32,000 bases of DNA from Pseudodesulfovibrio piezophilus C1TLV30 (GCF_000341895.1 NC_020409.1:2490001-2522000); one strand, 5' to 3'. Shown: positions 3,902-29,676, counted from the stretch's first letter. Translations and numbers: made by a program. Notes: generated by a model not told the origin, from the sequence alone.

Positions 3902-4624
3902 TTAGCGGACTTTCAGGGCTTCCTCTTCCGAGTCGAAGAGTTTTGCCAGTTTGGTAATACCGACCATTTCGAACACAGCTTTGAAATTGGTGGAAAGGCC
4001 GGTCAGGACCACCCGGACTCCGGCATCCCGTTGAGATTGCAGGAGCGTGGTCAGTCCGGTCAGTCCGGCTCCGTTGATGGATGCATTCTTTTCAAAGTCG
4101 ATGAGTACCAGAGACTTGTCGAGCTTCCTTGCCTTGTTGAATGTTTCCGTGAGATGCGGGATGGTATTGGTGGTGACATTTCCGCGTACCCCAATGACCG
4201 CAGCTTTGACGCGCTCTTCAAGAGAGACCTGCCCCTCTTCATTTCTGGCGATCTCCAACCGCTCGGCGGCGCGGGACAACGCCTGCTCAAGCGCTTTGCG
4301 TTGTAGCGGTTTGTTGATGAAATCCGTGGCATCCAGATTGAGCGCCTGAATAGCCAGGTCCATGTCGCCATGCCCGGTGATGACGATGACCTCGGCATGG
4401 GGATTGACGCTTTTTATCTGTTTGAGGACCTCAATGCCGTCCATGACAGGCATTTTGATGTCTGTTAGGACGAGGTTGGGGCGTTCTTTTTTGAACAGTT
4501 CGAAGCCCTCCTGCCCGTTTTCAGCGGTAATGATTTGGTATCCATAGGCTGAGAGCAGCAGGGTAAACATTCGCAATGTGGGTTGCTCATCGTCAATAAC
4601 CAATATTTTTTCTTTCGTTGTCAT
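3902..4624 (-). CDS. Response regulator with an N-terminal receiver domain and a C-terminal STAS (anti-sigma-antagonist-like) domain
   Basis: REC motifs are present: ILVIDDE, the phospho-acceptor context LVLTDIKMP, and FINKP. The C-terminal about 100 aa follow a SpoIIAA/STAS-like pattern (LVLIDFEKNASINGAGLTGL...VVLTGL). The ATG overlaps the kinase stop (ATGA). Confidence 0.9.
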   Translation of the reverse strand: MTTKEKILVIDDEQPTLRMFTLLLSAYGYQIITAENGQEGFELFKKERPNLVLTDIKMPVMDGIEVLKQIKSVNPHAEVIVITGHGDMDLAIQALNLDATDFINKPLQRKALEQALSRAAERLEIARNEEGQVSLEERVKAAVIGVRGNVTTNTIPHLTETFNKARKLDKSLVLIDFEKNASINGAGLTGLTTLLQSQRDAGVRVVLTGLSTNFKAVFEMVGITKLAKLFDSEEEALKVR

Positions 4625-6633
4625 GCTGTGGAACCTCCTCGTGTGCCCGCTTCGGGAAATTGCATGCGAAACACGGTTCCCTTGTTTTTTTCACTTGTTA
4701 TGCGGATATCCCCGCCATAATCCTTGATAATGCCATATGTGATGGCAAGGCCAAGTCCCATGCCCTGCCCTGTTTCCTTGGTCGTGAAGAATGGCTCAAA
4801 GACTTTGTGCTGGTCTTCTTCTGAAATGCCTGTGCCCGTATCCTGCACCTCAATATAGACGAAATTGCCATTCTGATTGCTTCGTATCGTGATGCGACGT
4901 TCTTTGGCCGGAGCGTTGGGCGATGAATTCTCATTAATTGCGTCTCGGGCATTGGCCACAAGATTGAACAGGACTTGTTGCAGTCTGTTGGAGTGTGCCA
5001 GGATCGGAGGAAGCCCCTCGGTCAGCTCCAGTTCAAAGCGGATGTTTTCCAGTTCAAACTGCCGCCGAATCATGGAGAGCACTGCCGTCACCGGTTGGTT
5101 GATGTTGACTTTTTCTTCAATCAAGTCGGATTTGCGACCAAAGGAGCGCAGGGTGTTAATGATTTCGGCGGCCCGGTCCACTTGAGTGGAGATATCAGCC
5201 ACAACCTGGAGAAAATGTTCTCTGGGAACCTCGATATTCTCCTGCTGCATCATGGAGAGAAATTCGCTTCCCATCTTGATGACATTGAGGGGCTGGTTGA
5301 TTTCATGAGCAACGCCTGCGCTCATTTCTCCAAGAGATTTCATTTTGCCCGCCTGTATCAACTGGGCATCTTTTTCTATCATCTCTGTGATGTCTGTTAC
5401 GGCGATGATGATGGCATGACGACCTCGATACGAGATGGGGCAGGCATGCATATTGACAAAAAAAGGTTCATTGTCGAGCTTGTAATGGATTCTCTTGGGG
5501 AAATAGACGCAGCCGTTGCCGCCGTCCCGAAAATAGTCCAGGCAATCGGCATTGTGGTCCGGCCCAAGGGTTTCGAAATTCATGCCCTTGAGCTCTTGTC
5601 TGGACAATCCGTAAAGTTCCACCGTGCGAGGGTTGGCATCGCGGATTTCCCCGCTTTCGCATTCCACAACGAAAATGGGGTCTGGCCCGGAATCGAAGAG
5701 GGAACGGTATTTTTCCTCTGATTCTCGCAGCCTGCGTCTATAGAGTTTTATGGACCAGACCATGTTGCGGAAGGAGTCGCTGAGTTGGACGACCTCGTCT
5801 CCTTCATGTTTTCGGTAAAACGTGCAGTTGGCGCATTGCCGATGTGCATCGCCGGGGGGATCGGCACTGCGTGATTCATCGAAATGCCAGCAGGGGAGGT
5901 CTGTGTTGGTAAAAGCCGGGCAATTCGATGTATCCCACTGTTCATCTCTGCCGAATTTCAGGGGAATATCGAAATTCCCCCGGCTGATTTCATCGGAGAT
6001 GCGCGTCAGGTCGGAAATGGGCTGGGTGATATAGCGAGTCAGCCATGAAGAAAAAAATGCGGTTATCAGGATGATCAGTGAGATGAAGCCGAAAAAGGCT
6101 ACGCGTAACTTTCCGATCAGGGTGTCGATGTGGCTTTTGTTCAGGCCGACATGGACAGTTCCGATACGGTAAAGCCCTTCATTGATGGCTGCCGCGACAT
6201 CATAGATGGATTCGTCCTCGACTTCGATGAGTTTGACAGAATCAGGCTCGCCTTCAGGGACTTGATTGGTCAGCAGAACCTTCGGCAGGTTACGGGTCAT
6301 GGTGTGAGCCAGCAGGTTTCCCTCCGCATCCTGCACAAAGATATATGAGAGCATGTACTTCCGTTGGTGCAGTTTGGCCTCGTCGAAAATAAGGGTCAGC
6401 AACTGAGGGATATCCTTATCCAGGATATAGGAGCCTCCTCGTTCGGCAACGGAGTGAGCCACGGCTTTGCCTCGAATCTCCAATTCATGTGTCAGGGAAC
6501 TGACCAGGATATAGCGAGAGACAAAGGCGATACAGACACTGATGAACAACACGGCCACCAGCATGGAGAGGAGAAGTTTTTCACGCAGGCCGGAGAGAGT
6601 GAACCACTGGATTATTTTGTCCTGTACGCTCAC
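4621..6633 (-). CDS. Membrane sensor histidine kinase: two TM segments with an extracytoplasmic domain, a HAMP carrying a Cys-rich insert, PAS, HisKA and HATPase_c
   Basis: Kinase motifs are the H-box GVAHEINQPLN, N-box LFNLVANARDA, G1 VQDTGTGI and G2 GMGLGLAI. There are two hydrophobic segments (about aa 20-40 and 178-198). The GTG start overlaps the upstream stop (GTGA). Confidence 0.9.
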   Translation of the reverse strand: MSVQDKIIQWFTLSGLREKLLLSMLVAVLFISVCIAFVSRYILVSSLTHELEIRGKAVAHSVAERGGSYILDKDIPQLLTLIFDEAKLHQRKYMLSYIFVQDAEGNLLAHTMTRNLPKVLLTNQVPEGEPDSVKLIEVEDESIYDVAAAINEGLYRIGTVHVGLNKSHIDTLIGKLRVAFFGFISLIILITAFFSSWLTRYITQPISDLTRISDEISRGNFDIPLKFGRDEQWDTSNCPAFTNTDLPCWHFDESRSADPPGDAHRQCANCTFYRKHEGDEVVQLSDSFRNMVWSIKLYRRRLRESEEKYRSLFDSGPDPIFVVECESGEIRDANPRTVELYGLSRQELKGMNFETLGPDHNADCLDYFRDGGNGCVYFPKRIHYKLDNEPFFVNMHACPISYRGRHAIIIAVTDITEMIEKDAQLIQAGKMKSLGEMSAGVAHEINQPLNVIKMGSEFLSMMQQENIEVPREHFLQVVADISTQVDRAAEIINTLRSFGRKSDLIEEKVNINQPVTAVLSMIRRQFELENIRFELELTEGLPPILAHSNRLQQVLFNLVANARDAINENSSPNAPAKERRITIRSNQNGNFVYIEVQDTGTGISEEDQHKVFEPFFTTKETGQGMGLGLAITYGIIKDYGGDIRITSEKNKGTVFRMQFPEAGTRGGSTA

Positions 6634-9960: not shown

Positions 9961-10779
9961 ATGGACGTCAACTCTTCCTTCAGACCGAGACCAATGCTGC
10001 TGCTTTCTTCAGGATGTCTTTTTCATCTTCCCTTGCGTCTCATAGCACGCCTTGGCCGTAATGCCGGGTTCGCAGGTCTTGAGGTGATCATGAATTCGCC
10101 CCGGTTGTGTCACTCTTCGGAGCTGGATGGAGTGGATGCGCTGCTTCCCATCAAGAGTTTGCATGCACCTTTTCGACGCTGGTCGGATTGGGGCGGACAC
10201 CTTGCAGCCTGGAAAGCGACGACTTCTCTTGCCAATTCCCTGCCCAACGTCGACCATATCACACTGCATCCACCCGGCACTCGGCTTGCCAACATGATCG
10301 CCAACCGATGGTTCGAGAAGGCTCATGACCTTGCTCTGTTACTCGACGCCAAGGGGCGTGTGCGATTTTCTTTGGAAACCATGCCCTGGGTGCGAGGTTC
10401 ACCCTTTGGCAGGCATCCCTTTGAGCAACTCCTGGAACTGTGTCGTGACAAAAATGTTGGATTGACTTTTGATGTCTGTCATATGGGAGTGTCCGGGTTG
10501 AATATCATGGATGCCATTGGTCATGTGCCTGACGCGCTCTTGTATAACGTCCATTTCTCTGATGCCAAGGGGTATACCGAGCACCTTTCTCCAGGAAAGG
10601 GCGACCTGCCGCTCGATGATTTTCTCAAGCATCTTGGCAAACGTGGGTATGATGGCTACCTTACCCTGGAACTGGAACCGTCTGCTTTCCCCGATGATCT
10701 TGATGCCAGTACCGAAATACTGGCAGGAATGCGGACACATATTGAGACCCGCCTGATGCGGGGTGCAAAGGAAGCTTGA
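9961..10779 (+). CDS. Sugar-phosphate isomerase/epimerase, xylose-isomerase-like TIM barrel (AP_endonuc_2 family)
   Basis: The family-typical pattern of conserved H/E/D strand ends is present (LHAPF, ITLHPP, SLETMP, FDVCH, VHFSD, LTLELE). Confidence 0.75.
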   Translation: MDVNSSFRPRPMLLLSSGCLFHLPLRLIARLGRNAGFAGLEVIMNSPRLCHSSELDGVDALLPIKSLHAPFRRWSDWGGHLAAWKATTSLANSLPNVDHITLHPPGTRLANMIANRWFEKAHDLALLLDAKGRVRFSLETMPWVRGSPFGRHPFEQLLELCRDKNVGLTFDVCHMGVSGLNIMDAIGHVPDALLYNVHFSDAKGYTEHLSPGKGDLPLDDFLKHLGKRGYDGYLTLELEPSAFPDDLDASTEILAGMRTHIETRLMRGAKEA

Positions 10780-10781
10780 AT

Positions 10782-11192
10782 ATGCCCACTCCATATCTTG
10801 AACAGGTCCGAAAAAAGGATCAACAGGTCAACCCGTTGTTTCTTTCACATGGAATAGAAGTCGAATCCATTGCCGTGGATCGGGCCGTCCTTCGTCTTGA
10901 GGTTACTTCCGGATTGATACAAGGCGGTGGTGTGGTTGCCGGAGGCATTGTTGCCTCCCTCTTGGATGGTGCCATGGCTCACGCTGTTCTGGGGGGCAAC
11001 AAGCAGGGTGAGGTGGCATCGACCATTGATATGAATGTTTGCTTCTACCACCCGGTTCTCAACGGAGAATGCATCACATGTGAGGGATGGGTGGACAAGC
11101 GCGGCAGCCGGATTGTTTTTGCCGGGGCCGTGGCCTTGGTGGAGGGGCGCGAGGTAGCCAAGGCAACGGCATCATTCATGATCGTTCACTAG
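10782..11192 (+). CDS. PaaI-family hotdog-fold thioesterase
   Basis: It shows GGGVVAGGIVASLLDGAMAHA, the typical PaaI/4HBT class II core, followed by a C-terminal beta-sheet pattern. AAGGAAG lies upstream. The ATG at 10782 sits just after the upstream stop. Confidence 0.85.
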   Translation: MPTPYLEQVRKKDQQVNPLFLSHGIEVESIAVDRAVLRLEVTSGLIQGGGVVAGGIVASLLDGAMAHAVLGGNKQGEVASTIDMNVCFYHPVLNGECITCEGWVDKRGSRIVFAGAVALVEGREVAKATASFMIVH

Positions 11193-11262
11193 AAAAAGCA
11201 TCCCCAGAGGACGGCTTTGAATGGAATGACTCCGTCATACAAATCAATTCAGGAGATGAAAC

Positions 11263-11697
11263 ATGACTCCATCGACAGATCTTATCGTTTGCCCGGCATG
11301 TCGGGCCATCAACAGGGTTCAGGCTGGTCGGGAAGCTCAGGCAACATGTGGCAAATGCGGTGGCAAGGTCTATGAGCCACATGTGCTGGAATTGGTCGGC
11401 ATGACTTTTGATCGGCATATCGCCAAAACAGGCATTCCCGTGTTGGTGGATTTCTATTCACCGACATGCGGTCCCTGCCTGATGATGGGACCACAATTCG
11501 AGGAAGCTGCGCGATTGCTGTATCCTTCGGTGCGTTTTGGCAGAATTGACACCTCTGCGGAGCACAGCGTTGCTGCTCGGTTTGATATCATGTCCGTTCC
11601 GACGCTGGTTCTTTTCAAGAACGGTCGGGAAATTGCCCGCCAGCCGGGGGCGATGAACGCCCATGATATTGTCGCTTGGGCACGAAAAAATCTTTAA
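11263..11697 (+). CDS. trxC: Thioredoxin 2 with an N-terminal zinc-finger extension
   Basis: The N-terminus has CPAC...CGKCG (two CxxC pairs). A thioredoxin domain follows with the CGPC active site (FYSPTCGPC). Confidence 0.9.
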   Translation: MTPSTDLIVCPACRAINRVQAGREAQATCGKCGGKVYEPHVLELVGMTFDRHIAKTGIPVLVDFYSPTCGPCLMMGPQFEEAARLLYPSVRFGRIDTSAEHSVAARFDIMSVPTLVLFKNGREIARQPGAMNAHDIVAWARKNL

Positions 11698-25427: not shown

Positions 25428-25466
25428 CCTCTCCTGTCGGTTTTTTCGGCAGGAGAGTTTTTTTTG
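25428..25466 (+). terminator. Rho-independent terminator of the aldolase gene
   Basis: The stem cctctcctgtcgg / cggcaggagag has one mismatch and is followed by a T8 run. Confidence 0.7.
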
Positions 25467-25615
25467 CTTTTTCTTTGTGTGTCTTGTTCGTGGCTGCGTT
25501 TTTCGATGTCAGTTCGCGGCACGGCCAGAGCCTCGGAGAGGTGATATCCCTTTTGCCTGAGTTCATCAGCACCGGGAAGCTCCCCTCCAGCCTCACGAAA
25601 GATGAATATGGTTTT

Positions 25616-25631
25616 TGGCACGGTTCCCGCT
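25616..25631 (+). promoter_or_regulatory. Sigma54-like -24/-12 element (TGGCACG-N4-CCGCT)
   Basis: TGGCACGGTTCCCGCT has a perfect -24 half and the canonical GG-N10-GC spacing. The -12 half is CCGC rather than TTGC. It lies in a gene-free spacer pointing towards the palindromic terminator at 25859. Confidence 0.2.
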
Positions 25632-25858
25632 CTCCTTTTCCTTGTGCATGTTTGAATCGTCTATAAATCGATTGACCGATTATAATATCGCTTTGTTGAT
25701 TTATAGATAGGTATTTGAGAGCGGAAAGTCCAATGAAAATCACACTTTTTTAGTACGTAATATGCTATTTTACTTTGATTTTTCCATCAAATAAAATTAC
25801 AGGTTTTTTCATTGTTCGAGCCTTCAATGCATGGTCTTTTTCGATGATAAGCCCGTGG

Positions 25859-25908
25859 ATATGACAAAACGCCCCGTGCAGAATTCTGCACGGGGCGTTT
25901 TGTCATAT
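25859..25908. terminator. Perfect 50-nt palindrome (25-bp arms centred on GAATTC), a hairpin terminator
   Basis: I verified base by base that atatgacaaaacgccccgtgcagaa | ttctgcacggggcgttttgtcatat is perfectly self-complementary. It lies 4 nt downstream of the stop of the minus-strand 135-aa gene, and on the plus strand it is followed by ATTTTT. Confidence 0.75.
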
Positions 25909-25912
25909 ATTT

Positions 25913-26320
25913 TTAGGCCTGGGTGTTGTCTGCCTTGAAGACGAAGAGAGGCAGTCTGGCCAGAACTTCCCAGTTGTCGCCGTTTTTGATGGAAACACTG
26001 ACGTGGTGTTTGCCTTCGGCTTCAACTTTGAGTCCTGGGAGCTGAAAATTCATTTTGTGCAGGGCTGTTTCCGCCGGAGTGATTTCCTGAATGCCGAGCA
26101 GGGTGTCCTGGCCGTCCGGGCCGGTCAGGTTGAGAGACACGGTGAATGGTTGTCCCCCATTCTTTTCCATGTCCCAGAGACTGGCAAAGTATACGGGCGG
26201 CAGGACGGCCGGGAGTTCCGGGACCACGGCGTGTTCAACGGTACGAATGAAGGATGTGGAGCTGGAATCTTTGTCTATGAGCAGGTCCGCGCTCATCAGA
26301 GCATAAACAAGTCTGGGCAT
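25913..26320 (-). CDS. Hypothetical 135-aa cytoplasmic protein, predicted beta-rich; last gene of the repressor operon
   Basis: Its ATG lies 9 nt downstream of the stop of the upstream HEAT-repeat gene. It has no signal peptide and alternating beta-strand-like patterns (FTVSLNLTG, HHVSVSIKNG, LPLFVFKA). I recognise no family. Confidence 0.7.
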   Translation of the reverse strand: MPRLVYALMSADLLIDKDSSSTSFIRTVEHAVVPELPAVLPPVYFASLWDMEKNGGQPFTVSLNLTGPDGQDTLLGIQEITPAETALHKMNFQLPGLKVEAEGKHHVSVSIKNGDNWEVLARLPLFVFKADNTQA

Positions 26321-26329
26321 TGCGCCTCC

Positions 26330-27322
26330 TTATTGGTTGATGGGACGATGAACCCCTGAGAGGGTTTCCCGGAGGTCTTCGGGTAACGTGAGAACCGCGT
26401 CGGGGTCAATCTCGACCAGGAGCAGCGCCGAGGCTATGCGTTGGCCCGGGGTGCCATGGTTGACCCCCTCTCTGAGGGCTGGCAGGGCATCTTTGCCTAT
26501 TTCGGCAAGGGTCCTGAATGCCATCTGCGCCAGTGGCGTGCCTCCACGTCCCAGCAGGCGTGTCAAGATTTGACTGGCCTTGTTTCCTATATGCCCGACC
26601 ATGCAAGTGCCGGACTCACTGCCAAGAAGTGCAAGCTCGAATTCTATCATGGCCGGGTCAGCTCCGATCAGGTCTATGGCTTCTGCTATGACATGCATGG
26701 CTCGAATGTCATCAGTCTCCAGAGCCCTGATCAGGGCGGGGACAGCGCTTTGTGCGCTGGGTCCCAGTCTTCCGAGTAGCCATGCGGCCTTGGCTCTAAC
26801 AGCACTGTCTTCTGTCTGCAGGGTTCGAATCAGGGCCGGAATGCTGTTACTCCCCATCAATTTGAGGCTGAACGCAGCGGCATCCCGAACATGGGGCCGG
26901 AGGTCGGCAAGGCGTTTTACCAGGAACGGAGCCGCAGTCTTTCCGAGCATTCCAAGGCTGTGTGCAGCGAGGCTTCTGGTGTGCACGTCCGTATCGTTGA
27001 GTGATTTCAGAAGGGTGTCCATACCGAGTGCCGGGGAGGGCAGGAGAGAGAGACCGATAACCGCCCCCCTGCGTTGGAGCGGCGAGCCGTGCTCGGCCAA
27101 CTGCATCAAGGGTTTGAGGGCGCACTGTCCCATGAGGTCCAGTTCCATTGCGGCTGTAAGGCGAATATCACCGGATTTGTCAGCCAGGCGCATTGCGACA
27201 TCGGGTATCGATATGTCCTGAAGAGGAGCGGCATGAGCACTCCATGCGAACACCAAAAGGAAAAGAATGGCCGGAGCCAGGACTGTGTCCAAAACCATAT
27301 TTTGTCTTTTGACTATTTTCAT
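26330..27322 (-). CDS. Secreted HEAT-repeat (PBS-lyase-type HEAT-like) protein
   Basis: It has a signal peptide (LAPAILFLLVFAWSAHA|AP). About 8 repeats follow the D/S-x-x-V/I-R-x-x-A-A-x-x-L-G pattern (DVHTRSLAAHSLGMLG, RPHVRDAAAFSLKLMG, DSAVRAKAAWLLGRLG and others). It starts 24 nt after the repressor stop. Confidence 0.8.
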   Translation of the reverse strand: MKIVKRQNMVLDTVLAPAILFLLVFAWSAHAAPLQDISIPDVAMRLADKSGDIRLTAAMELDLMGQCALKPLMQLAEHGSPLQRRGAVIGLSLLPSPALGMDTLLKSLNDTDVHTRSLAAHSLGMLGKTAAPFLVKRLADLRPHVRDAAAFSLKLMGSNSIPALIRTLQTEDSAVRAKAAWLLGRLGPSAQSAVPALIRALETDDIRAMHVIAEAIDLIGADPAMIEFELALLGSESGTCMVGHIGNKASQILTRLLGRGGTPLAQMAFRTLAEIGKDALPALREGVNHGTPGQRIASALLLVEIDPDAVLTLPEDLRETLSGVHRPINQ

Positions 27323-27346
27323 GGGGTGCCTTGATGTGATTCGGAC

Positions 27347-28093
27347 TTATTTTCTGGTCATATCGCTCCACGCCCAGACCACATTGCCGCCAATGGCGCG
27401 GGTGATATCGCCTTCGTAGTCGCGTTCGAGGCGGTAGGTGGTGGGGGGGAAGTCCCGACTGTTGTCCGAGTAGAATATGAGTTCGAGATCCTCATCGAGT
27501 CGCTTGGTGTTGACTCGCTTGACCATGGCTCCCCCGTCCTCGCCGGGTTCGCAAACAAGCATGATTTTCCCCGCCGGGCTGGGGTCACGGTCATTGCGGT
27601 CTACCAGGACGATATCGCCAGGATGCAGGGTGGGGATCATTGACAGTTCATTGGCTCCGATCTCGACAGCCACGAGGTTGGTGCGAAAGCGGATGGATTC
27701 CTGATGCCTCCAGACGAGAACCCAGCCCTCCACCTTGTCTTCGGGGATGAGGCCCGGACCTGCCGCCACAGGAGATGCCGCAAGTGGCACAGCCAGATAG
27801 TCATCAGGAAGTGGGTCTGGACTATTGTCTCCTGACTGAGACTTGCCAGGCATGTGAAAGCATATTTCCCGTGCTGCATCGGTCGGTTCGTCGCCAAATG
27901 AAATGGAGACTCCGACCTTGTCGAGAATATGTCCCAGAGAGTCGGCGTTGAGGCCTCTTTCCTGCTTGAGGAATCTGTTCAGCTGGGAAGGATCAATGCC
28001 GAGTTCGTCGGCCATCCTTTTGTTGTTGGGATATCGCTTCCCTCTGCCTATGCGGCTGATAAGCGCCTGCCGTACGTCGTCAGTAAATCCCAT
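27347..28093 (-). CDS. Phage CI/LexA-type repressor: N-terminal HTH plus C-terminal S24 self-cleaving peptidase domain
   Basis: The HTH segment is MADELGIDPSQLNRFLKQERG. A LexA-like cleavage site VAA|GPG lies at about aa 109-114. The catalytic Ser is in ELSMIPTL and the Lys in AMVKRV, 41 residues apart. GGAGGAAG lies upstream of the ATG. Confidence 0.9.
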   Translation of the reverse strand: MGFTDDVRQALISRIGRGKRYPNNKRMADELGIDPSQLNRFLKQERGLNADSLGHILDKVGVSISFGDEPTDAAREICFHMPGKSQSGDNSPDPLPDDYLAVPLAASPVAAGPGLIPEDKVEGWVLVWRHQESIRFRTNLVAVEIGANELSMIPTLHPGDIVLVDRNDRDPSPAGKIMLVCEPGEDGGAMVKRVNTKRLDEDLELIFYSDNSRDFPPTTYRLERDYEGDITRAIGGNVVWAWSDMTRK

Positions 28094-28124
28094 GAGTCTT
28101 CCTCCGTTCCGTGGTCGGGATGTC

Positions 28125-28205
28125 TTGTTTATACATAGTTTTTGATGGATGTCTAAAGTTTTTTGTCAAAATTAGTTGACTCTCTAATAGTCAATCGACT
28201 ATTTA
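28125..28205. promoter_or_regulatory. Divergent promoter/operator region of the repressor switch
   Basis: Four copies of the half-site AGTCAA/TTGACT are present: tGTCAA 28164-69, TTGACT 28176-81, AGTCAA 28189-94 and TcGACT 28195-200, arranged as two inverted pairs. The rightward candidate promoter is TTGACT-N18-TATTTA. The leftward candidate, read on the minus strand, is TAGACA-N16-TATAAA (28150-55 / 28128-33). Confidence 0.5.
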
Positions 28206-28250
28206 TAGGCGTCCATGTGAACGGGAAGGCTGAGGGTCAGAGGAGGATTT

Positions 28251-28661
28251 ATGTTGAAAAAGGTGGAACTGATGCGTGTGGAGCAGGGGGATGAGGGAAC
28301 CTTCGGGGTCTTGCGGCTCGAAGGGCGTGCCTACTGCGTTACTTTAGAGCCTCCGGACAGGGACAACATGGCAAATATGTCGTGTATCCCCGCCGGTCAC
28401 TATATGTGCAGACTGGTGGAGTCTCCACGCTTCGGCAGGACGTTCGAGGTGATGAATGTTCCGGGGCGCTCCCACATCCTGTTACATCCGGGCAACGTGG
28501 TTGGGGATACCCGTGGCTGCGTTTTGCTCGGTAGAGAATTCGGTCGATTGAGGGGAGACAGGGCAGTGCTCAATTCCGGGAAAACCTTTGCCGGTTTTCT
28601 GGAACAGTGCGGCGATGTAAACGAATTCGCCTTTATGGTGACAAACGCATACGAGGAGTAA
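28251..28661 (+). CDS. DUF5675-like protein with a YkuD (L,D-transpeptidase)-like H...[ST]xGC motif; no signal peptide
   Basis: It shows TFGVL...C.TLEPP...IPAGHY...RF...F.V..VPGRSHILLHPGNVVGDTRGCVLLG. H79 and C90 follow the YkuD catalytic pattern H-x(n)-[ST]-x-G-C-[IV]. AGGAGG lies upstream of the ATG. Confidence 0.75.
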   Translation: MLKKVELMRVEQGDEGTFGVLRLEGRAYCVTLEPPDRDNMANMSCIPAGHYMCRLVESPRFGRTFEVMNVPGRSHILLHPGNVVGDTRGCVLLGREFGRLRGDRAVLNSGKTFAGFLEQCGDVNEFAFMVTNAYEE

Positions 28662-28663
28662 TC

Positions 28664-28918
28664 ATGGATAATTTTTGTTTGAAGGGTGCGCGGGATATCT
28701 GCGACGCCGTGGGAGAAAATCCTAAAAATATACATGAATTGGTCAAGGATCATGGGCTGCCGGCATGGAAGCGGGGGGCCAAGGGAACATGGCGGGCCTT
28801 GCCCGATGATCTCAGGCTCTGGATTCGCGAACAGCGGGACCGGAATATCGGGTATTTCCTTTACGGTGACGGTTGCATGATTGACGGAGGCAAGCGTCGA
28901 TCTCCAGAGGACGCCTGA
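28664..28918 (+). CDS. Small (84 aa) excisionase/AlpA-like HTH DNA-binding protein
   Basis: The ATG lies 2 nt after the upstream stop, with GAGGAG upstream. The segment ICDAVGENPKNIHELVKDHGLPAWKRG...WRALPDDLRLWI resembles the phage Xis / MerR-superfamily HTH_17 type. Confidence 0.65.
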   Translation: MDNFCLKGARDICDAVGENPKNIHELVKDHGLPAWKRGAKGTWRALPDDLRLWIREQRDRNIGYFLYGDGCMIDGGKRRSPEDA

Positions 28919-28965
28919 TTTTGACCAACCAAGGGGCCGGGTTTCTCCGGTCCATTCTTTGTGTG

Positions 28966-29676
28966 TCATTCGAGATGATACCTGACTACCCCCGAGCCGT
29001 TGACACCGCTTCGGGGGTGTTTCTCGTTTGGAGCGTTCACAGAGAGCCGTACTCCATGCTCCGGCTCCAGGCGGACCACACGCTCGGCCAAGGCCAGGCA
29101 GTGTTCAAGCTTATTGATCTTTTCGAAAAGCGGGTTCAAAGGGCGTCTCATAAAAGTCCGGTGAGATGGTGGGGTGTCACGAGGCTTTTGTATGACTGAT
29201 TCAGGGACTTTTTGTAAGACACTCCTCTCATCTTTTGTCATCATTTTCGAATCGGTATTGTGGGTGGATATGATCTGGGTATGATTAGTCGGTTCGTTGC
29301 GAAGAGAGACAGGGAGAGCCAGTGATGGTGGTGTGAAGAGAAGGGAGTTGGAAGAGGATATAACGGCCGGAGGCTTATGAAGGGGGGCCTCCGGAGAAAG
29401 GGGCGGAGATTTTCGTATTTTTTTATTTTCAGGAGGAGATGCTGGCGTGGGGCCGAGTAACCAGTTCATTTTATCCTGAAAGACGGTTTGGGGGGATTTG
29501 TCATTCACGGCGAATTCATAGGTATACTCGCCGACTGTGTAGGCTGTCCCTGCATATTGAAGCGGTCCTGTTGAAACAAGCCCGACCACACCAAGGGTGG
29601 CATTGAGAATCATGCAACCAGGCAGAACCAGGATCGCGACTGCAAAGAAAGTGTTTCGGACAAAGAGGTGCTTCAT
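28966..29676 (-). CDS. Hypothetical membrane-anchored or lipoprotein with a Pro/Ser-rich linker
   Basis: The hydrophobic N-terminus has a lipobox-like LPGC. It is followed by low-complexity Pro-rich sequence (PTPASPPENKKIRKSPPLSPEAPLHKPP). I recognise no family. Confidence 0.55.
   Translation of the reverse strand: MKHLFVRNTFFAVAILVLPGCMILNATLGVVGLVSTGPLQYAGTAYTVGEYTYEFAVNDKSPQTVFQDKMNWLLGPTPASPPENKKIRKSPPLSPEAPLHKPPAVISSSNSLLFTPPSLALPVSLRNEPTNHTQIISTHNTDSKMMTKDERSVLQKVPESVIQKPRDTPPSHRTFMRRPLNPLFEKINKLEHCLALAERVVRLEPEHGVRLSVNAPNEKHPRSGVNGSGVVRYHLE

What the first reader, a model, noticed from the sequence alone, without database searches (positions are those of the whole stretch)
25913..28093. 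Self-cleaving CI/LexA-type repressor heading an operon with two uncharacterised cargo genes, a secreted HEAT-repeat protein and a 135-aa unknown
What the sequence shows:
- Three tightly packed same-strand genes, with gaps of 24 and 9 nt, end in a perfect palindromic terminator.
- The first gene retains every element of an autoproteolytic S24 repressor: an HTH, a VAA|G cleavage site and the Ser/Lys dyad.
- The second gene is a signal-peptide-bearing protein of about 8 HEAT repeats.
- The third gene is a beta-rich 135-aa protein with no family I can name.

Established knowledge: in temperate phages the genes co-transcribed downstream of cI from the lysogenic promoter are classically superinfection-exclusion or defence cargo, as in lambda cI-rexA-rexB.

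Inference: the HEAT-repeat protein and the 135-aa protein occupy that rexAB-like position. They may form an undescribed two-component exclusion, defence or envelope-surveillance module, with one periplasmic and one cytoplasmic partner. Their expression would be tied to repressor integrity, and therefore to DNA damage or RecA activation.
Basis: partly seen in the sequence, partly recalled or inferred. Interest (0 to 1): 0.75.

Follow-up and report, generated by a model that had tools for sequence, protein, structure and literature searches.

The report
Domesticated phage-type repressor operon
A lambda-CI-like self-cleaving repressor really does head a three-gene operon here, but the locus is an ancient chromosomal fixture of a whole family of sulfate reducers, not prophage cargo; its last gene belongs to a small protein family that elsewhere sits as the third gene of toxin-antitoxin operons.

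Summary
Three minus-strand genes lie 24 and 9 nt apart and end at a perfect 23-bp hairpin: a CI-type HTH+S24 repressor (VAA|G, Ser151, Lys192), a signal-peptide HEAT protein and a 135-aa beta protein, which is Pfam DUF6941.

The prophage-cargo reading does not hold. The window is ordinary Pseudodesulfovibrio chromosome. The block HTH_17<-DUF5675<-|->repressor->HEAT->DUF6941 sits at the same place in all 13 genus loci that extend across it and diverges in step with flanking housekeeping genes. Neither the repressor nor this DUF6941 type was found in phage collections.

HEAT is a fast-evolving, genus-specific insertion. Sister lineages have repressor->DUF6941 directly, or other genes in between, so HEAT and DUF6941 are not an obligate pair.

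The conserved core is the repressor, a palindromic operator and a divergent small HTH_17 gene, usually with a phage-lysin-like DUF5675 gene. This resembles AlpR/AlpA.

About 40% of repressor orthologues have lost the cleavage site and/or the catalytic dyad.

Distant DUF6941 genes mostly lie just downstream of HicAB, Gp49-XRE or DUF4258-DUF2283 pairs, the slot held by the SecB-like chaperone in TAC systems. I infer that DUF6941 is an accessory partner of the upstream DNA-binding protein.

The parts
27347..28093 (-). CI-type repressor, 248 aa: XRE-like HTH (about residues 24-63), disordered linker, S24 domain. Cleavage site A111|G112 (VAAG), Ser151, Lys192.
26330..27322 (-). Secreted (Sec-type signal peptide) HEAT-repeat protein, 330 aa, about 8-9 repeats. 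A genus-specific, fast-evolving insertion.
   Evidence: Pfam HEAT_2 E = 2.5e-31. Orthologues are 45-52% identical and all have signal-peptide-like N-termini. Absent from L018-L027 at this position.
25913..26320 (-). DUF6941 protein, 135 aa, cytoplasmic immunoglobulin-like beta-sandwich.
   Evidence: Pfam PF22091 29.6 bits. AF2 pLDDT 92.9. 416 representative clusters in the family. Neighbourhoods.
25860..25907 (.). Perfect palindrome acting as an intrinsic, potentially bidirectional terminator that closes the operon.
   Evidence: -49.8 kcal/mol, z = -11.
28094..28250 (.). Divergent control region. Candidate repressor promoter on the minus strand: -35 TTAGAC (28151-28156), 17-nt spacer, -10 TATAAA (28128-28133), SD GGAGGA (28100-28105). 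Candidate DUF5675 promoter on the plus strand: -35 TTGACT (28176-28181), -10 TATTTA (28200-28205).
   Evidence: Blocks invariant across 13 loci, including two other genera. Coordinates read. One promoter-like hit.
28186..28203 (.). Candidate operator O1: AATAGTCAATCGACTATT, family consensus TWGWCA-N2-TGWCWA. It overlaps the spacer and -10 of the DUF5675 promoter.
   Evidence: Found in the repressor upstream region of most related loci, and rarely anywhere else in them.
28251..28661 (+). DUF5675 protein, 136 aa, divergent from the repressor. Phage-lysin-like (C82/YkuD-like, HPGNVVGDTRGC motif), no signal peptide.
   Evidence: Pfam E = 3.6e-33 and phrog_1501. 248 phage records carry homologues. 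Candidate-lysin status from bioRxiv 10.64898/2026.04.11.717860.
28664..28918 (+). Small HTH_17 (Xis/AlpA-like fold) protein, 84 aa, 2 nt after DUF5675. The most constant partner of the repressor across genera.
   Evidence: Pfam HTH_17 23.6 bits, below the cut-off of 27. Orthologues in 20 of 21 related loci.

Best explanation
The locus is a chromosomally fixed, probably prophage-derived, CI/Cro-style genetic switch. It has been inherited vertically in Desulfovibrionaceae.

**How it most likely works (inferred)**
1. The 248-aa repressor (XRE-type HTH + S24 domain) binds as a dimer to the conserved palindrome TWGWCA-N2-TGWCWA. This palindrome overlaps the promoter of the divergent DUF5675-HTH_17 operon. 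A second conserved block covers the repressor's own -35.
2. The repressor therefore shuts off the lysin-like/HTH_17 genes and limits its own operon.
3. DNA damage (RecA*) triggers self-cleavage at Ala111|Gly112 by the Ser151/Lys192 dyad. That would derepress both promoters.
4. HEAT and DUF6941 would then be co-induced with the repressor, as lexA itself is.

**Roles of the two downstream genes**
- DUF6941 is the older companion. It directly follows the repressor in a sister lineage. In distant relatives it is the last gene of toxin->antitoxin operons, immediately after the DNA-binding antitoxin.
- I infer that it binds or modulates the upstream DNA-binding protein, as a chaperone, adaptor or sensor, as SecB-like proteins do in TAC systems.
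- The periplasmic HEAT protein is a later, genus-specific passenger inserted between them. It is not an obligate partner of DUF6941.
For: **Shown**
- Anatomy and motifs of the three genes.
- The same five-gene block lies between the flavin reductase and the DeoC aldolase/HDOD genes in all 13 Pseudodesulfovibrio loci that extend across it.
- Pairwise identities track those of DeoC and HDOD: r = 0.92/0.92 for DUF6941, 0.64/0.84 for the repressor, 0.80/0.89 for HEAT.
- The repressor family extends to Paucidesulfovibrio, Humidesulfovibrio and Desulfovibrio spp. at 59-71% identity, with varying downstream genes.
- The intergenic blocks are invariant across genera. The palindrome lies in the repressor upstream region of most loci and is rare elsewhere in them.
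- umuDC lies directly downstream in two lineages. In L024 DUF6941 overlaps umuD by 4 nt; in L021 the order is repressor->RlmL->umuDC.
- Among roughly 21 interpretable distant DUF6941 contexts, 15-16 have a HicB, XRE or DUF2283 gene immediately upstream (gaps -19 to +18 nt, with two exceptions: L043 at 82 nt, and L046, where the XRE ORF overlaps the called start of the DUF6941 ORF). HicA, Gp49-like or DUF4258 toxins lie one gene further up.
- TAC systems place a SecB-like chaperone in that same slot of HigBA, HicAB and MqsRA operons (PMC5105189).
- Precedent for a chromosomal self-cleaving repressor controlling a small HTH regulator and lysis genes: P. aeruginosa alpRABCDE (PMC7969949).
Against: - No transcription, cleavage or binding data exist for this locus.
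- The Pfam S24 score is 0.5 bit under its threshold, and sequence searches of the PDB find no LexA or CI.
- In the window the second conserved block is a poor palindrome (TTTAGACATCCATCAAA), so autoregulation is less certain than repression of DUF5675.
- About 40% of orthologue clusters have lost the Ala-Gly site, the Lys or the Ser yet keep the locus. Damage sensing is therefore not essential for whatever keeps the locus.
- No toxin gene precedes the repressor here, so the TAC analogy is only positional.
- The DUF6941 fold is a generic beta-sandwich with no informative PDB match.
- The distant contexts come from one motif-biased scan.
Confidence: 0.55

Rival explanations
1. The operon is a lysogeny-type cI-cargo unit. 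HEAT (periplasmic) and the 135-aa protein (cytoplasmic) act together as a two-component exclusion, defence or envelope-surveillance module.
For: - The gene order resembles cI-rexA-rexB.
- Remote DUF6941-like proteins occupy moron or lysogeny-module positions in the temperate phages A403 and StB12.
- DUF5675 and HTH_17 are phage-type genes.
Against: - No prophage features are present and synteny holds across the genus.
- HEAT is absent from every non-Pseudodesulfovibrio locus that has repressor plus DUF6941.
- A GNAT gene separates HEAT from DUF6941 in L008 and L014.
- PADLOC gives only a generic HEAT-ARM hit.
- No phage hits were found for the repressor or for this DUF6941 type.
Confidence: 0.08
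2. The repressor is a housekeeping DNA-damage regulator, a second or alternative LexA analogous to UmuDAb. HEAT and DUF6941 are ordinary members of its damage regulon, for example envelope or mutagenesis-related functions, with no TA-like or partner logic.
For: - The gene is conserved across the family at the level of neighbouring core genes: mean pairwise identity 0.72, against 0.67 for HDOD.
- umuDC lies immediately downstream in two lineages.
- The cleavage triad is intact in 73 of 121 members.
Against: - The DNA-binding domain is XRE-type, not the LexA winged helix.
- Within 12-16 kb of each locus the operator occurs mainly at the divergent promoter, and not upstream of umuD.
- The cleavage elements have been lost repeatedly.
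- The constant partners are phage-type genes (DUF5675, HTH_17).
- Whether these genomes also have a canonical lexA could not be checked with the tools and quotas that remained.
Confidence: 0.17
3. DUF6941 is itself a toxin or effector, and the upstream DNA-binding protein is its antitoxin: HicB or XRE elsewhere, the CI-type repressor here. Repressor cleavage would unleash it.
For: - The tight order DNA-binding gene -> DUF6941 recurs.
- Some loci (L028, L036, L043, L022) show no recognisable toxin upstream of HicB.
Against: - Where the context is complete, a recognised toxin (HicA, Gp49, DUF4258) is already present.
- The fold has no catalytic signature, and the broadly invariant residues (P37, W49, P68, G103) look structural.
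- DUF6941 persists alone, or detached from the repressor, in L017 and L008.
Confidence: 0.1
4. The adjacency has no functional meaning. The three genes are neighbours by descent with independent promoters and unrelated roles.
For: - The slot between repressor and DUF6941 tolerates an aldolase, a GNAT gene, a secreted protein or nothing.
- DUF6941 is missing from four repressor loci.
Against: - The gaps are 9-38 nt, with an SD but no terminator between the genes, in the window and in most species.
- The link between the repressor locus and DUF6941 persists across at least four lineage types.
- The wider family is independently linked to DNA-binding genes.
Confidence: 0.1

Closest known systems
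Phage lambda immunity region (cI-rexA-rexB with divergent cro)
   Same: - An HTH+S24 repressor with an Ala-Gly site and a Ser/Lys dyad.
- It is the first gene of an operon with two non-regulatory genes.
- There is a divergent promoter region with dyad operators and a small HTH gene on the other side.
- Lambda CI is the best structural match.
   Different: - It does not lie in a prophage and is inherited vertically across a bacterial family.
- The downstream genes are unrelated to RexAB and are not a conserved pair.
- The cro position is held by a lysin-like gene plus an HTH_17 protein.
- The operator layout suggests that cleavage induces the operon, whereas lambda P_RM needs CI for activation.
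Pseudomonas aeruginosa alpR-alpA-alpBCDE (and prtR-prtN)
   Same: - A chromosomal, domesticated self-cleaving repressor.
- It controls an adjacent small HTH regulator and cell-wall or lysis functions in response to DNA damage (PMC7969949, PMC9998450).
   Different: - No alpBCDE homologues are present; the lytic candidate is DUF5675.
- HTH_17 is not shown to belong to the AlpA family or to act as an antiterminator.
- The repressor here carries extra downstream genes (HEAT, DUF6941).
[quoted passage not shown]
   Same: - Distant DUF6941 genes hold the third position after toxin-first TA pairs of the HicAB and HigBA-like classes.
- The antitoxins there carry C-terminal tails of 45-80 aa (PMC5105189).
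   Different: - DUF6941 is an immunoglobulin-like beta-sandwich, not a SecB fold.
- The window has no toxin gene, and its 'antitoxin' is a CI-type repressor.
- No functional data exist for any DUF6941 protein.
Canonical LexA / Acinetobacter UmuDAb
   Same: - An S24 self-cleavage module on a transcription factor.
- umuDC is a neighbour in two lineages.
   Different: - The HTH is XRE-type, not the LexA winged helix.
- No hits to LexA family models.
- Local operator sites are seen mainly at its own divergent promoter.

Membership tests
CI/LexA-type autoproteolytic repressors (MEROPS S24) | N-terminal DNA-binding domain | tested here: met
   AF2 helices at 24-31, 35-42 and 50-60. Foldseek matches to XRE-type HTH domains (HipB, C.Esp1396I, ImmR). 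Pfam HTH_3 and HTH_19 are only weak, E about 0.05.
CI/LexA-type autoproteolytic repressors (MEROPS S24) | C-terminal S24 beta-fold | tested here: met
   The best PDB structural matches are lambda CI: 7jvt, and 2ho0 at TM 0.61 normalised to the target. PHROG_4 E = 9e-16. Pfam S24 scores 22.8 bits against a cut-off of 23.3, so it is marginally sub-threshold.
CI/LexA-type autoproteolytic repressors (MEROPS S24) | Ser/Lys catalytic dyad and Ala-Gly cleavage site | tested here: met
   S151 (LSMIPTLHPGD), K192 (MVKRV) and A111-G112 (VAAG). All three are kept in 73 of 121 family members and are lost together in many others.
CI/LexA-type autoproteolytic repressors (MEROPS S24) | RecA*-stimulated self-cleavage | not testable with these tools
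   Needs biochemistry.
Prophage lysogeny operon with exclusion cargo (lambda cI-rexAB type) | Resides in a prophage (integrase, att sites, phage modules); variable presence between strains or species | tested here: not met
   The neighbours are an aldolase, an HDOD protein, a flavin reductase, RecQ and RNase G. There is no tRNA and no integrase. The chromosomal position is the same in 13 species-level loci. No relatives were found in the phage collections.
Prophage lysogeny operon with exclusion cargo (lambda cI-rexAB type) | Cargo genes co-occur as a functional pair | tested here: not met
   HEAT is confined to Pseudodesulfovibrio. DUF6941 occurs without it in L017-L019 and L023-L025, and in all distant contexts.
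Canonical LexA | LexA winged-helix DNA-binding domain; match to LexA family models | tested here: not met
   No LexA_DNA_bind or lexA model hit in Pfam or NCBIfam. The N-terminal domain is XRE-like.
Pfam DUF6941 (PF22091) | Score above the gathering threshold | tested here: met
   29.6 bits against a cut-off of 27. The profile of the orthologues recovers 416 representative clusters of stand-alone proteins of about 130-150 aa.
TAC-type tripartite toxin-antitoxin systems | Toxin gene and antitoxin gene upstream in the same operon | tested here: not met
   In the window, the gene upstream of the repressor is the divergent DUF5675. The feature is met only in distant DUF6941 loci: HicA-HicB, Gp49-XRE and DUF4258-DUF2283.
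TAC-type tripartite toxin-antitoxin systems | Third gene is a SecB-like chaperone | tested here: not met
   The DUF6941 model is a nine-strand beta-sandwich. SecB is not among the listed Foldseek matches.
alpR/alpA-type damage-induced lysis pathway | Self-cleaving repressor next to a small positive regulator of the AlpA family, plus alpBCDE lysis genes | tested here: inconclusive
   The repressor and an adjacent small HTH gene are present. HTH_17 scores 23.6 bits, below the cut-off of 27, and no AlpA-family hit was returned. No alpBCDE genes are present; a DUF5675 candidate lysin is there instead.
HEAT / PBS-lyase HEAT-like repeat proteins | Repeated HEAT motifs above threshold | tested here: met
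   HEAT_2 108 bits, HEAT 59 bits, HEAT_PBS 37.8 bits. It is not a member of any specific NCBIfam equivalog; all such hits are far below their cut-offs.

The most novel reading that the evidence does not exclude
DUF6941 defines a previously undescribed, non-SecB third component of tripartite toxin-antitoxin or defence operons, built on HicAB, HigBA-like (Gp49-XRE) and DUF4258-DUF2283 pairs. It would act on the C-terminal tail of the DNA-binding antitoxin. In Desulfovibrionaceae this accessory protein would have been re-wired to a RecA-sensitive CI-type repressor fixed in the core genome, giving a DNA-damage-gated switch over a phage-derived lysin.
Probability: 0.3. Interest if true: 0.75.

Novelty: new variant of a known kind. 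Interest (0 to 1): 0.55.

Why it matters
If the model holds, three things follow.
1. A phage immunity switch can be kept for a long time, across several genera of Desulfovibrionaceae, as a host regulator. Self-cleavage was lost repeatedly along the way, which offers a natural experiment on what CI-type repressors do once they are uncoupled from RecA.
2. An uncharacterised Pfam family (DUF6941, with no literature) gains a concrete, testable role as an accessory partner of DNA-binding antitoxins or repressors. That would widen the TAC concept beyond SecB-like chaperones. TAC systems are known antiphage sensors.
3. It is a caution against reading every 'cI plus downstream unknowns' arrangement as prophage defence cargo.

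Tried and rejected
- **The search for related loci with diverse DUF6941 alignments** failed because no stretch was conserved enough. I replaced it with a hand-made degenerate DNA pattern.
- **Sequence searches of the PDB** found nothing useful. The repressor, DUF5675 and DUF6941 gave no hits. The repressor profile gave only SEC11C at E = 0.02.
- **Foldseek of DUF6941 against the PDB** gave only generic beta-sandwiches with query-normalised TM of about 0.5 or less: Integrator subunit, UNC119/PDE6D and Asf1. These say nothing about function.
- **PADLOC** gave no defence-system match except a generic HEAT-ARM model.
- **Phage and virus collections:** tblastn and IMG/VR scans for the repressor and for Desulfovibrionaceae-type or distant DUF6941 found nothing.
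- **Rfam and tRNA scans** of the window found nothing.
- **Literature:** no paper mentions DUF6941. None pairs DUF4258 with DUF2283, so their toxin/antitoxin status rests on my own knowledge. I could not establish from papers whether these genomes also have a canonical LexA.
- **Operator elsewhere in the window:** only one site with 2 mismatches, inside HEAT codons 3-7 (27302-27315). This is compatible with chance, since 7 of 100 shuffles gave at least 2 matches.
- **Considered and rejected:**
  - That the repressor is canonical LexA: the DNA-binding domain is the wrong type.
  - That the HEAT protein is a member of the DVU0298 or CpcE families: its scores are far below their cut-offs.
  - That L025's middle gene is a degenerate HEAT: it is a beta-rich secreted protein with no Pfam hit.
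Full report
**1. Observation**

The three minus-strand ORFs exist as described: 27347..28093 (248 aa), 26330..27322 (330 aa) and 25913..26320 (135 aa). The gaps are 24 and 9 nt, and the third gene is preceded by GGAGG.

A perfect palindrome lies at 25860-25907. On the operon's RNA it forms a 23-bp stem of -49.8 kcal/mol, z = -11 against shuffles.

Gene 1 matches PHROG_4 'transcriptional repressor' (E = 9e-16). It matches Pfam Peptidase_S24 at 22.8 bits, 0.5 bit below the cut-off. Its AlphaFold model (pLDDT 83) finds lambda CI as the best solved structure, and XRE-type HTH domains for the N-terminus. VAAG (109-112), Ser151 and Lys192 are all present.

Gene 2 is a HEAT-repeat protein (HEAT_2 E = 2.5e-31) with a Sec-type N-terminus, which all orthologues share.

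Gene 3 is an all-beta protein (pLDDT 92.9) that belongs to Pfam DUF6941. The only correction is that the third protein does have a family name.

**2. Context: chromosome, not prophage**

The rest of the window encodes ordinary functions: RecQ, RNase G, RsmB, thioredoxin, peroxiredoxins, sensor kinases, a DeoC-type aldolase and a flavin reductase. There is no integrase, no tRNA and no phage structural gene.

DUF6941 homologues at 58-80% identity occur throughout Pseudodesulfovibrio. In P. profundus, P. mercurii and eleven further genomes the same five-gene block lies between the same flavin reductase and aldolase/HDOD genes. The block is HTH_17 <- DUF5675 <- | -> repressor -> HEAT -> DUF6941.

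Pairwise identities of the block's proteins track those of the flanking aldolase and HDOD genes: r = 0.92/0.92 for DUF6941, 0.64/0.84 for the repressor and 0.80/0.89 for HEAT. Mean pairwise identities are 0.72 (repressor), 0.60 (DUF6941), 0.57 (DUF5675) and 0.49 (HEAT), against 0.81 (aldolase) and 0.67 (HDOD).

Neither the repressor nor this DUF6941 type has relatives in 50,697 phage records or in IMG/VR.

**3. What is core and what is passenger**

The repressor family extends to Paucidesulfovibrio (about 70% identity), Humidesulfovibrio (63%) and Desulfovibrio spp. (59%). The genes downstream of it vary by lineage:

| Locus or loci | Genes downstream of the repressor |
|---|---|
| L018 | DUF6941, 22 nt after the repressor |
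| L019, L023, L024 | aldolase -> DUF6941 |
| L025 | unrelated secreted 232-aa protein -> DUF6941 |
| L020, L027 | bactofilin |
| L021 | RlmL -> umuDC |
| L024 | DUF6941 overlaps umuD by 4 nt |

HEAT occurs at this position only in Pseudodesulfovibrio and is the least conserved gene (45-52% identity to the window copy). In L008 and L014 a GNAT gene on the other strand separates it from DUF6941. HEAT and DUF6941 are therefore not a co-occurring pair.

The most constant partner of the repressor is the divergent small HTH_17 gene, present in 20 of 21 related loci. It is usually accompanied by DUF5675.

DUF5675 is phage-typical. It has homologues in 248 phage records, including Microviridae, and a preprint groups it structurally with C82 peptidoglycan peptidases as a candidate lysin.

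**4. Control region**

An alignment of the repressor|DUF5675 intergenic regions from 13 loci, including two other genera, shows invariant blocks:
- ATAGTCA-N2-TGACTAT, a palindrome; in the window it is AATAGTCAATCGACTATT at 28186-28203.
- AGTCAAC, which contains the -35 TTGACT of the DUF5675 promoter.
- TTTAGACA, the -35 of the repressor promoter.
- TGTATAA, the -10 of the repressor promoter.

The palindrome, generalised as TWGWCA-N2-TGWCWA, lies in the repressor upstream region of most related loci. It includes TTGTCAATTGACAA in L021. Only two weak matches lie elsewhere in 12-16 kb of flanking sequence. In the window the only other match is a 2-mismatch site compatible with chance.

From this I infer classical repression of the DUF5675-HTH_17 promoter and probable autoregulation. 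That part is inference.

**5. Self-cleavage is not universal**

Of 121 family members, 73 keep the Ala-Gly site, the Ser and the Lys. The other 48 have lost one or more, typically Lys->Arg together with loss of the Ala-Gly site.

The correlated loss argues that the triad is a functional unit where it is present, as in the window. It also shows that the locus is retained without it.

**6. DUF6941 elsewhere**

A profile search of 1.84 billion representatives finds 416 clusters, nearly all stand-alone proteins of 130-150 aa.

Two distant members retrieved by exact look-up each lie 3-11 nt after a HicB-family gene. A degenerate-pattern scan of metagenomes gave 27 further HMM-confirmed loci. Among roughly 21 interpretable, non-duplicate contexts, the immediately upstream same-strand gene is:
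- a HicB antitoxin in 8;
- an XRE-HTH protein of about 140 aa in 6-7;
- a DUF2283 protein in 1.

These upstream genes carry C-terminal tails of 45-80 aa. One gene further upstream lies HicA, a Gp49/HigB-like toxin or DUF4258. That DUF4258 and DUF2283 form a toxin-antitoxin pair is from my own knowledge; the literature search found no paper pairing them.

The arrangement toxin -> antitoxin -> third gene is the architecture of TAC systems, which are built on HigBA, HicAB and MqsRA pairs with a SecB-like chaperone (PMC5105189). TAC systems can act as antiphage sensors (bioRxiv 10.1101/2024.02.24.581848).

DUF6941 is not SecB-like. Its model is an immunoglobulin-like sandwich with only generic PDB matches.

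Against predicted viral structures it matches small uncharacterised phage proteins at TM 0.70-0.80:
- One is Anoxybacillus phage A403 gene 35864-36268. It lies in the lysogeny module between ImmR/ImmA and the integrase and scores 15-18 bits against my DUF6941 HMM.
- Staphylococcus phage StB12 has a tandem pair after the endolysin.

The superfamily therefore lives in TA, moron and immunity contexts.

**7. Mechanism proposed**

- **Shown:** the anatomy, conservation, synteny, motifs and neighbourhoods described above.
- **Inferred:**
  - The repressor dimer holds the DUF5675-HTH_17 promoter and its own promoter.
  - RecA*-stimulated cleavage at A111|G112 derepresses both.
  - HEAT and DUF6941 rise together with the repressor.
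  - DUF6941 acts on the upstream DNA-binding protein as a stabiliser, adaptor or sensor.
  - HEAT is a periplasmic passenger.

The closest functional analogue is the chromosomal alpR/alpA damage-induced lysis switch of P. aeruginosa (PMC7969949). The closest structural relative of gene 1 is lambda CI. The closest positional analogue for gene 3 is the TAC chaperone. Membership in the rexAB-type, LexA and TAC families fails on tested defining features; see the membership table.

**8. Limits**

- There are no expression or biochemical data.
- The distant-context sample is biased by the search motif.
- Whether these genomes carry a canonical lexA was not determined.

**9. Verdict**

This is a real operon headed by a genuine CI-type repressor. 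It is a domesticated, vertically inherited switch rather than prophage cargo. The HEAT/135-aa 'two-component module' is not supported. The link between DUF6941 and toxin-antitoxin operons is the most interesting new lead.

Noticed in passing
window 28251-28918 (+): A divergent bicistron: DUF5675 (136 aa, no signal peptide, YkuD/C82-like His...Gly-Cys motif HPGNVVGDTRGC) followed 2 nt later by an 84-aa HTH_17 protein. A terminator-like hairpin follows at 28934-28953. DUF5675 has homologues in 248 phage records, including Microviridae.
   Followed up: partly
repressor family alignment; e.g. P0161 (P. cashew), P0192, P0226 (P. indicus): About 40% of orthologue clusters have lost the Ala-Gly site and/or Lys192 (to Arg) and/or Ser151 (to Ala, His or Asp), usually together, yet they keep the locus. 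This is repeated loss of autoproteolysis in a conserved CI-type regulator.
   Followed up: partly
L024 6001-8195; L021 6001-9754: umuD-umuC lie directly downstream of the locus in two lineages. In L024 the DUF6941 stop overlaps the umuD start by 4 nt.
   Followed up: no
window 28966-29676 (-): A 236-aa predicted lipoprotein (LPGC lipobox) with no Pfam hit, conserved at about 30% identity at the same place in most Pseudodesulfovibrio loci. Some species also have an NlpC/P60 gene next to it (L004 3191-4546).
   Followed up: no
window 25460-25860: A non-coding, AT-rich gap of about 400 nt (GC about 0.40, against about 0.55 around it) between the aldolase terminator and the operon terminator. In P. 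profundus the equivalent slot holds PCC and GntR genes and IS elements, so it is a variable insertion spot.
   Followed up: no
L019 265-2412; L026 1341-3512; L025 8377-10539: A large (about 720 aa) secreted HEAT protein (HEAT and Sel1 repeats confirmed by Pfam for L019 only; the L026 and L025 proteins match the window HEAT protein by tblastn) lies a few kb from the repressor in non-Pseudodesulfovibrio loci. It is a possible source of the 330-aa HEAT gene.
   Followed up: no
L030 1901-2796; L058 277-1151; L041 1943-4172; L068 4995-5803: DUF6941-type genes often come as tandem or duplicated copies within one locus, both in metagenomic TA-like operons and in Staphylococcus phage StB12 (gp73/gp74).
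   Followed up: no
L022 6001-10230; L033 429-2501: In two distant loci DUF6941 is followed by secretion genes: SapC plus an ABC exporter and a HlyD-like protein in L022, and an ABC exporter in L033. This is a second possible association.
   Followed up: no
window 27302-27315: TTGTCTTTTGACTA, a 2-mismatch match to the operator palindrome inside codons 3-7 of the HEAT gene. It is probably chance, since 7 of 100 shuffles give at least 2 matches.
   Followed up: partly
L003 (P. profundus LT907975) 307-1538, 4096-5327, 10328-11362: IS elements (rve and DDE_Tnp_1 transposases) have inserted around the block in one P. profundus genome without disrupting it.
   Followed up: no
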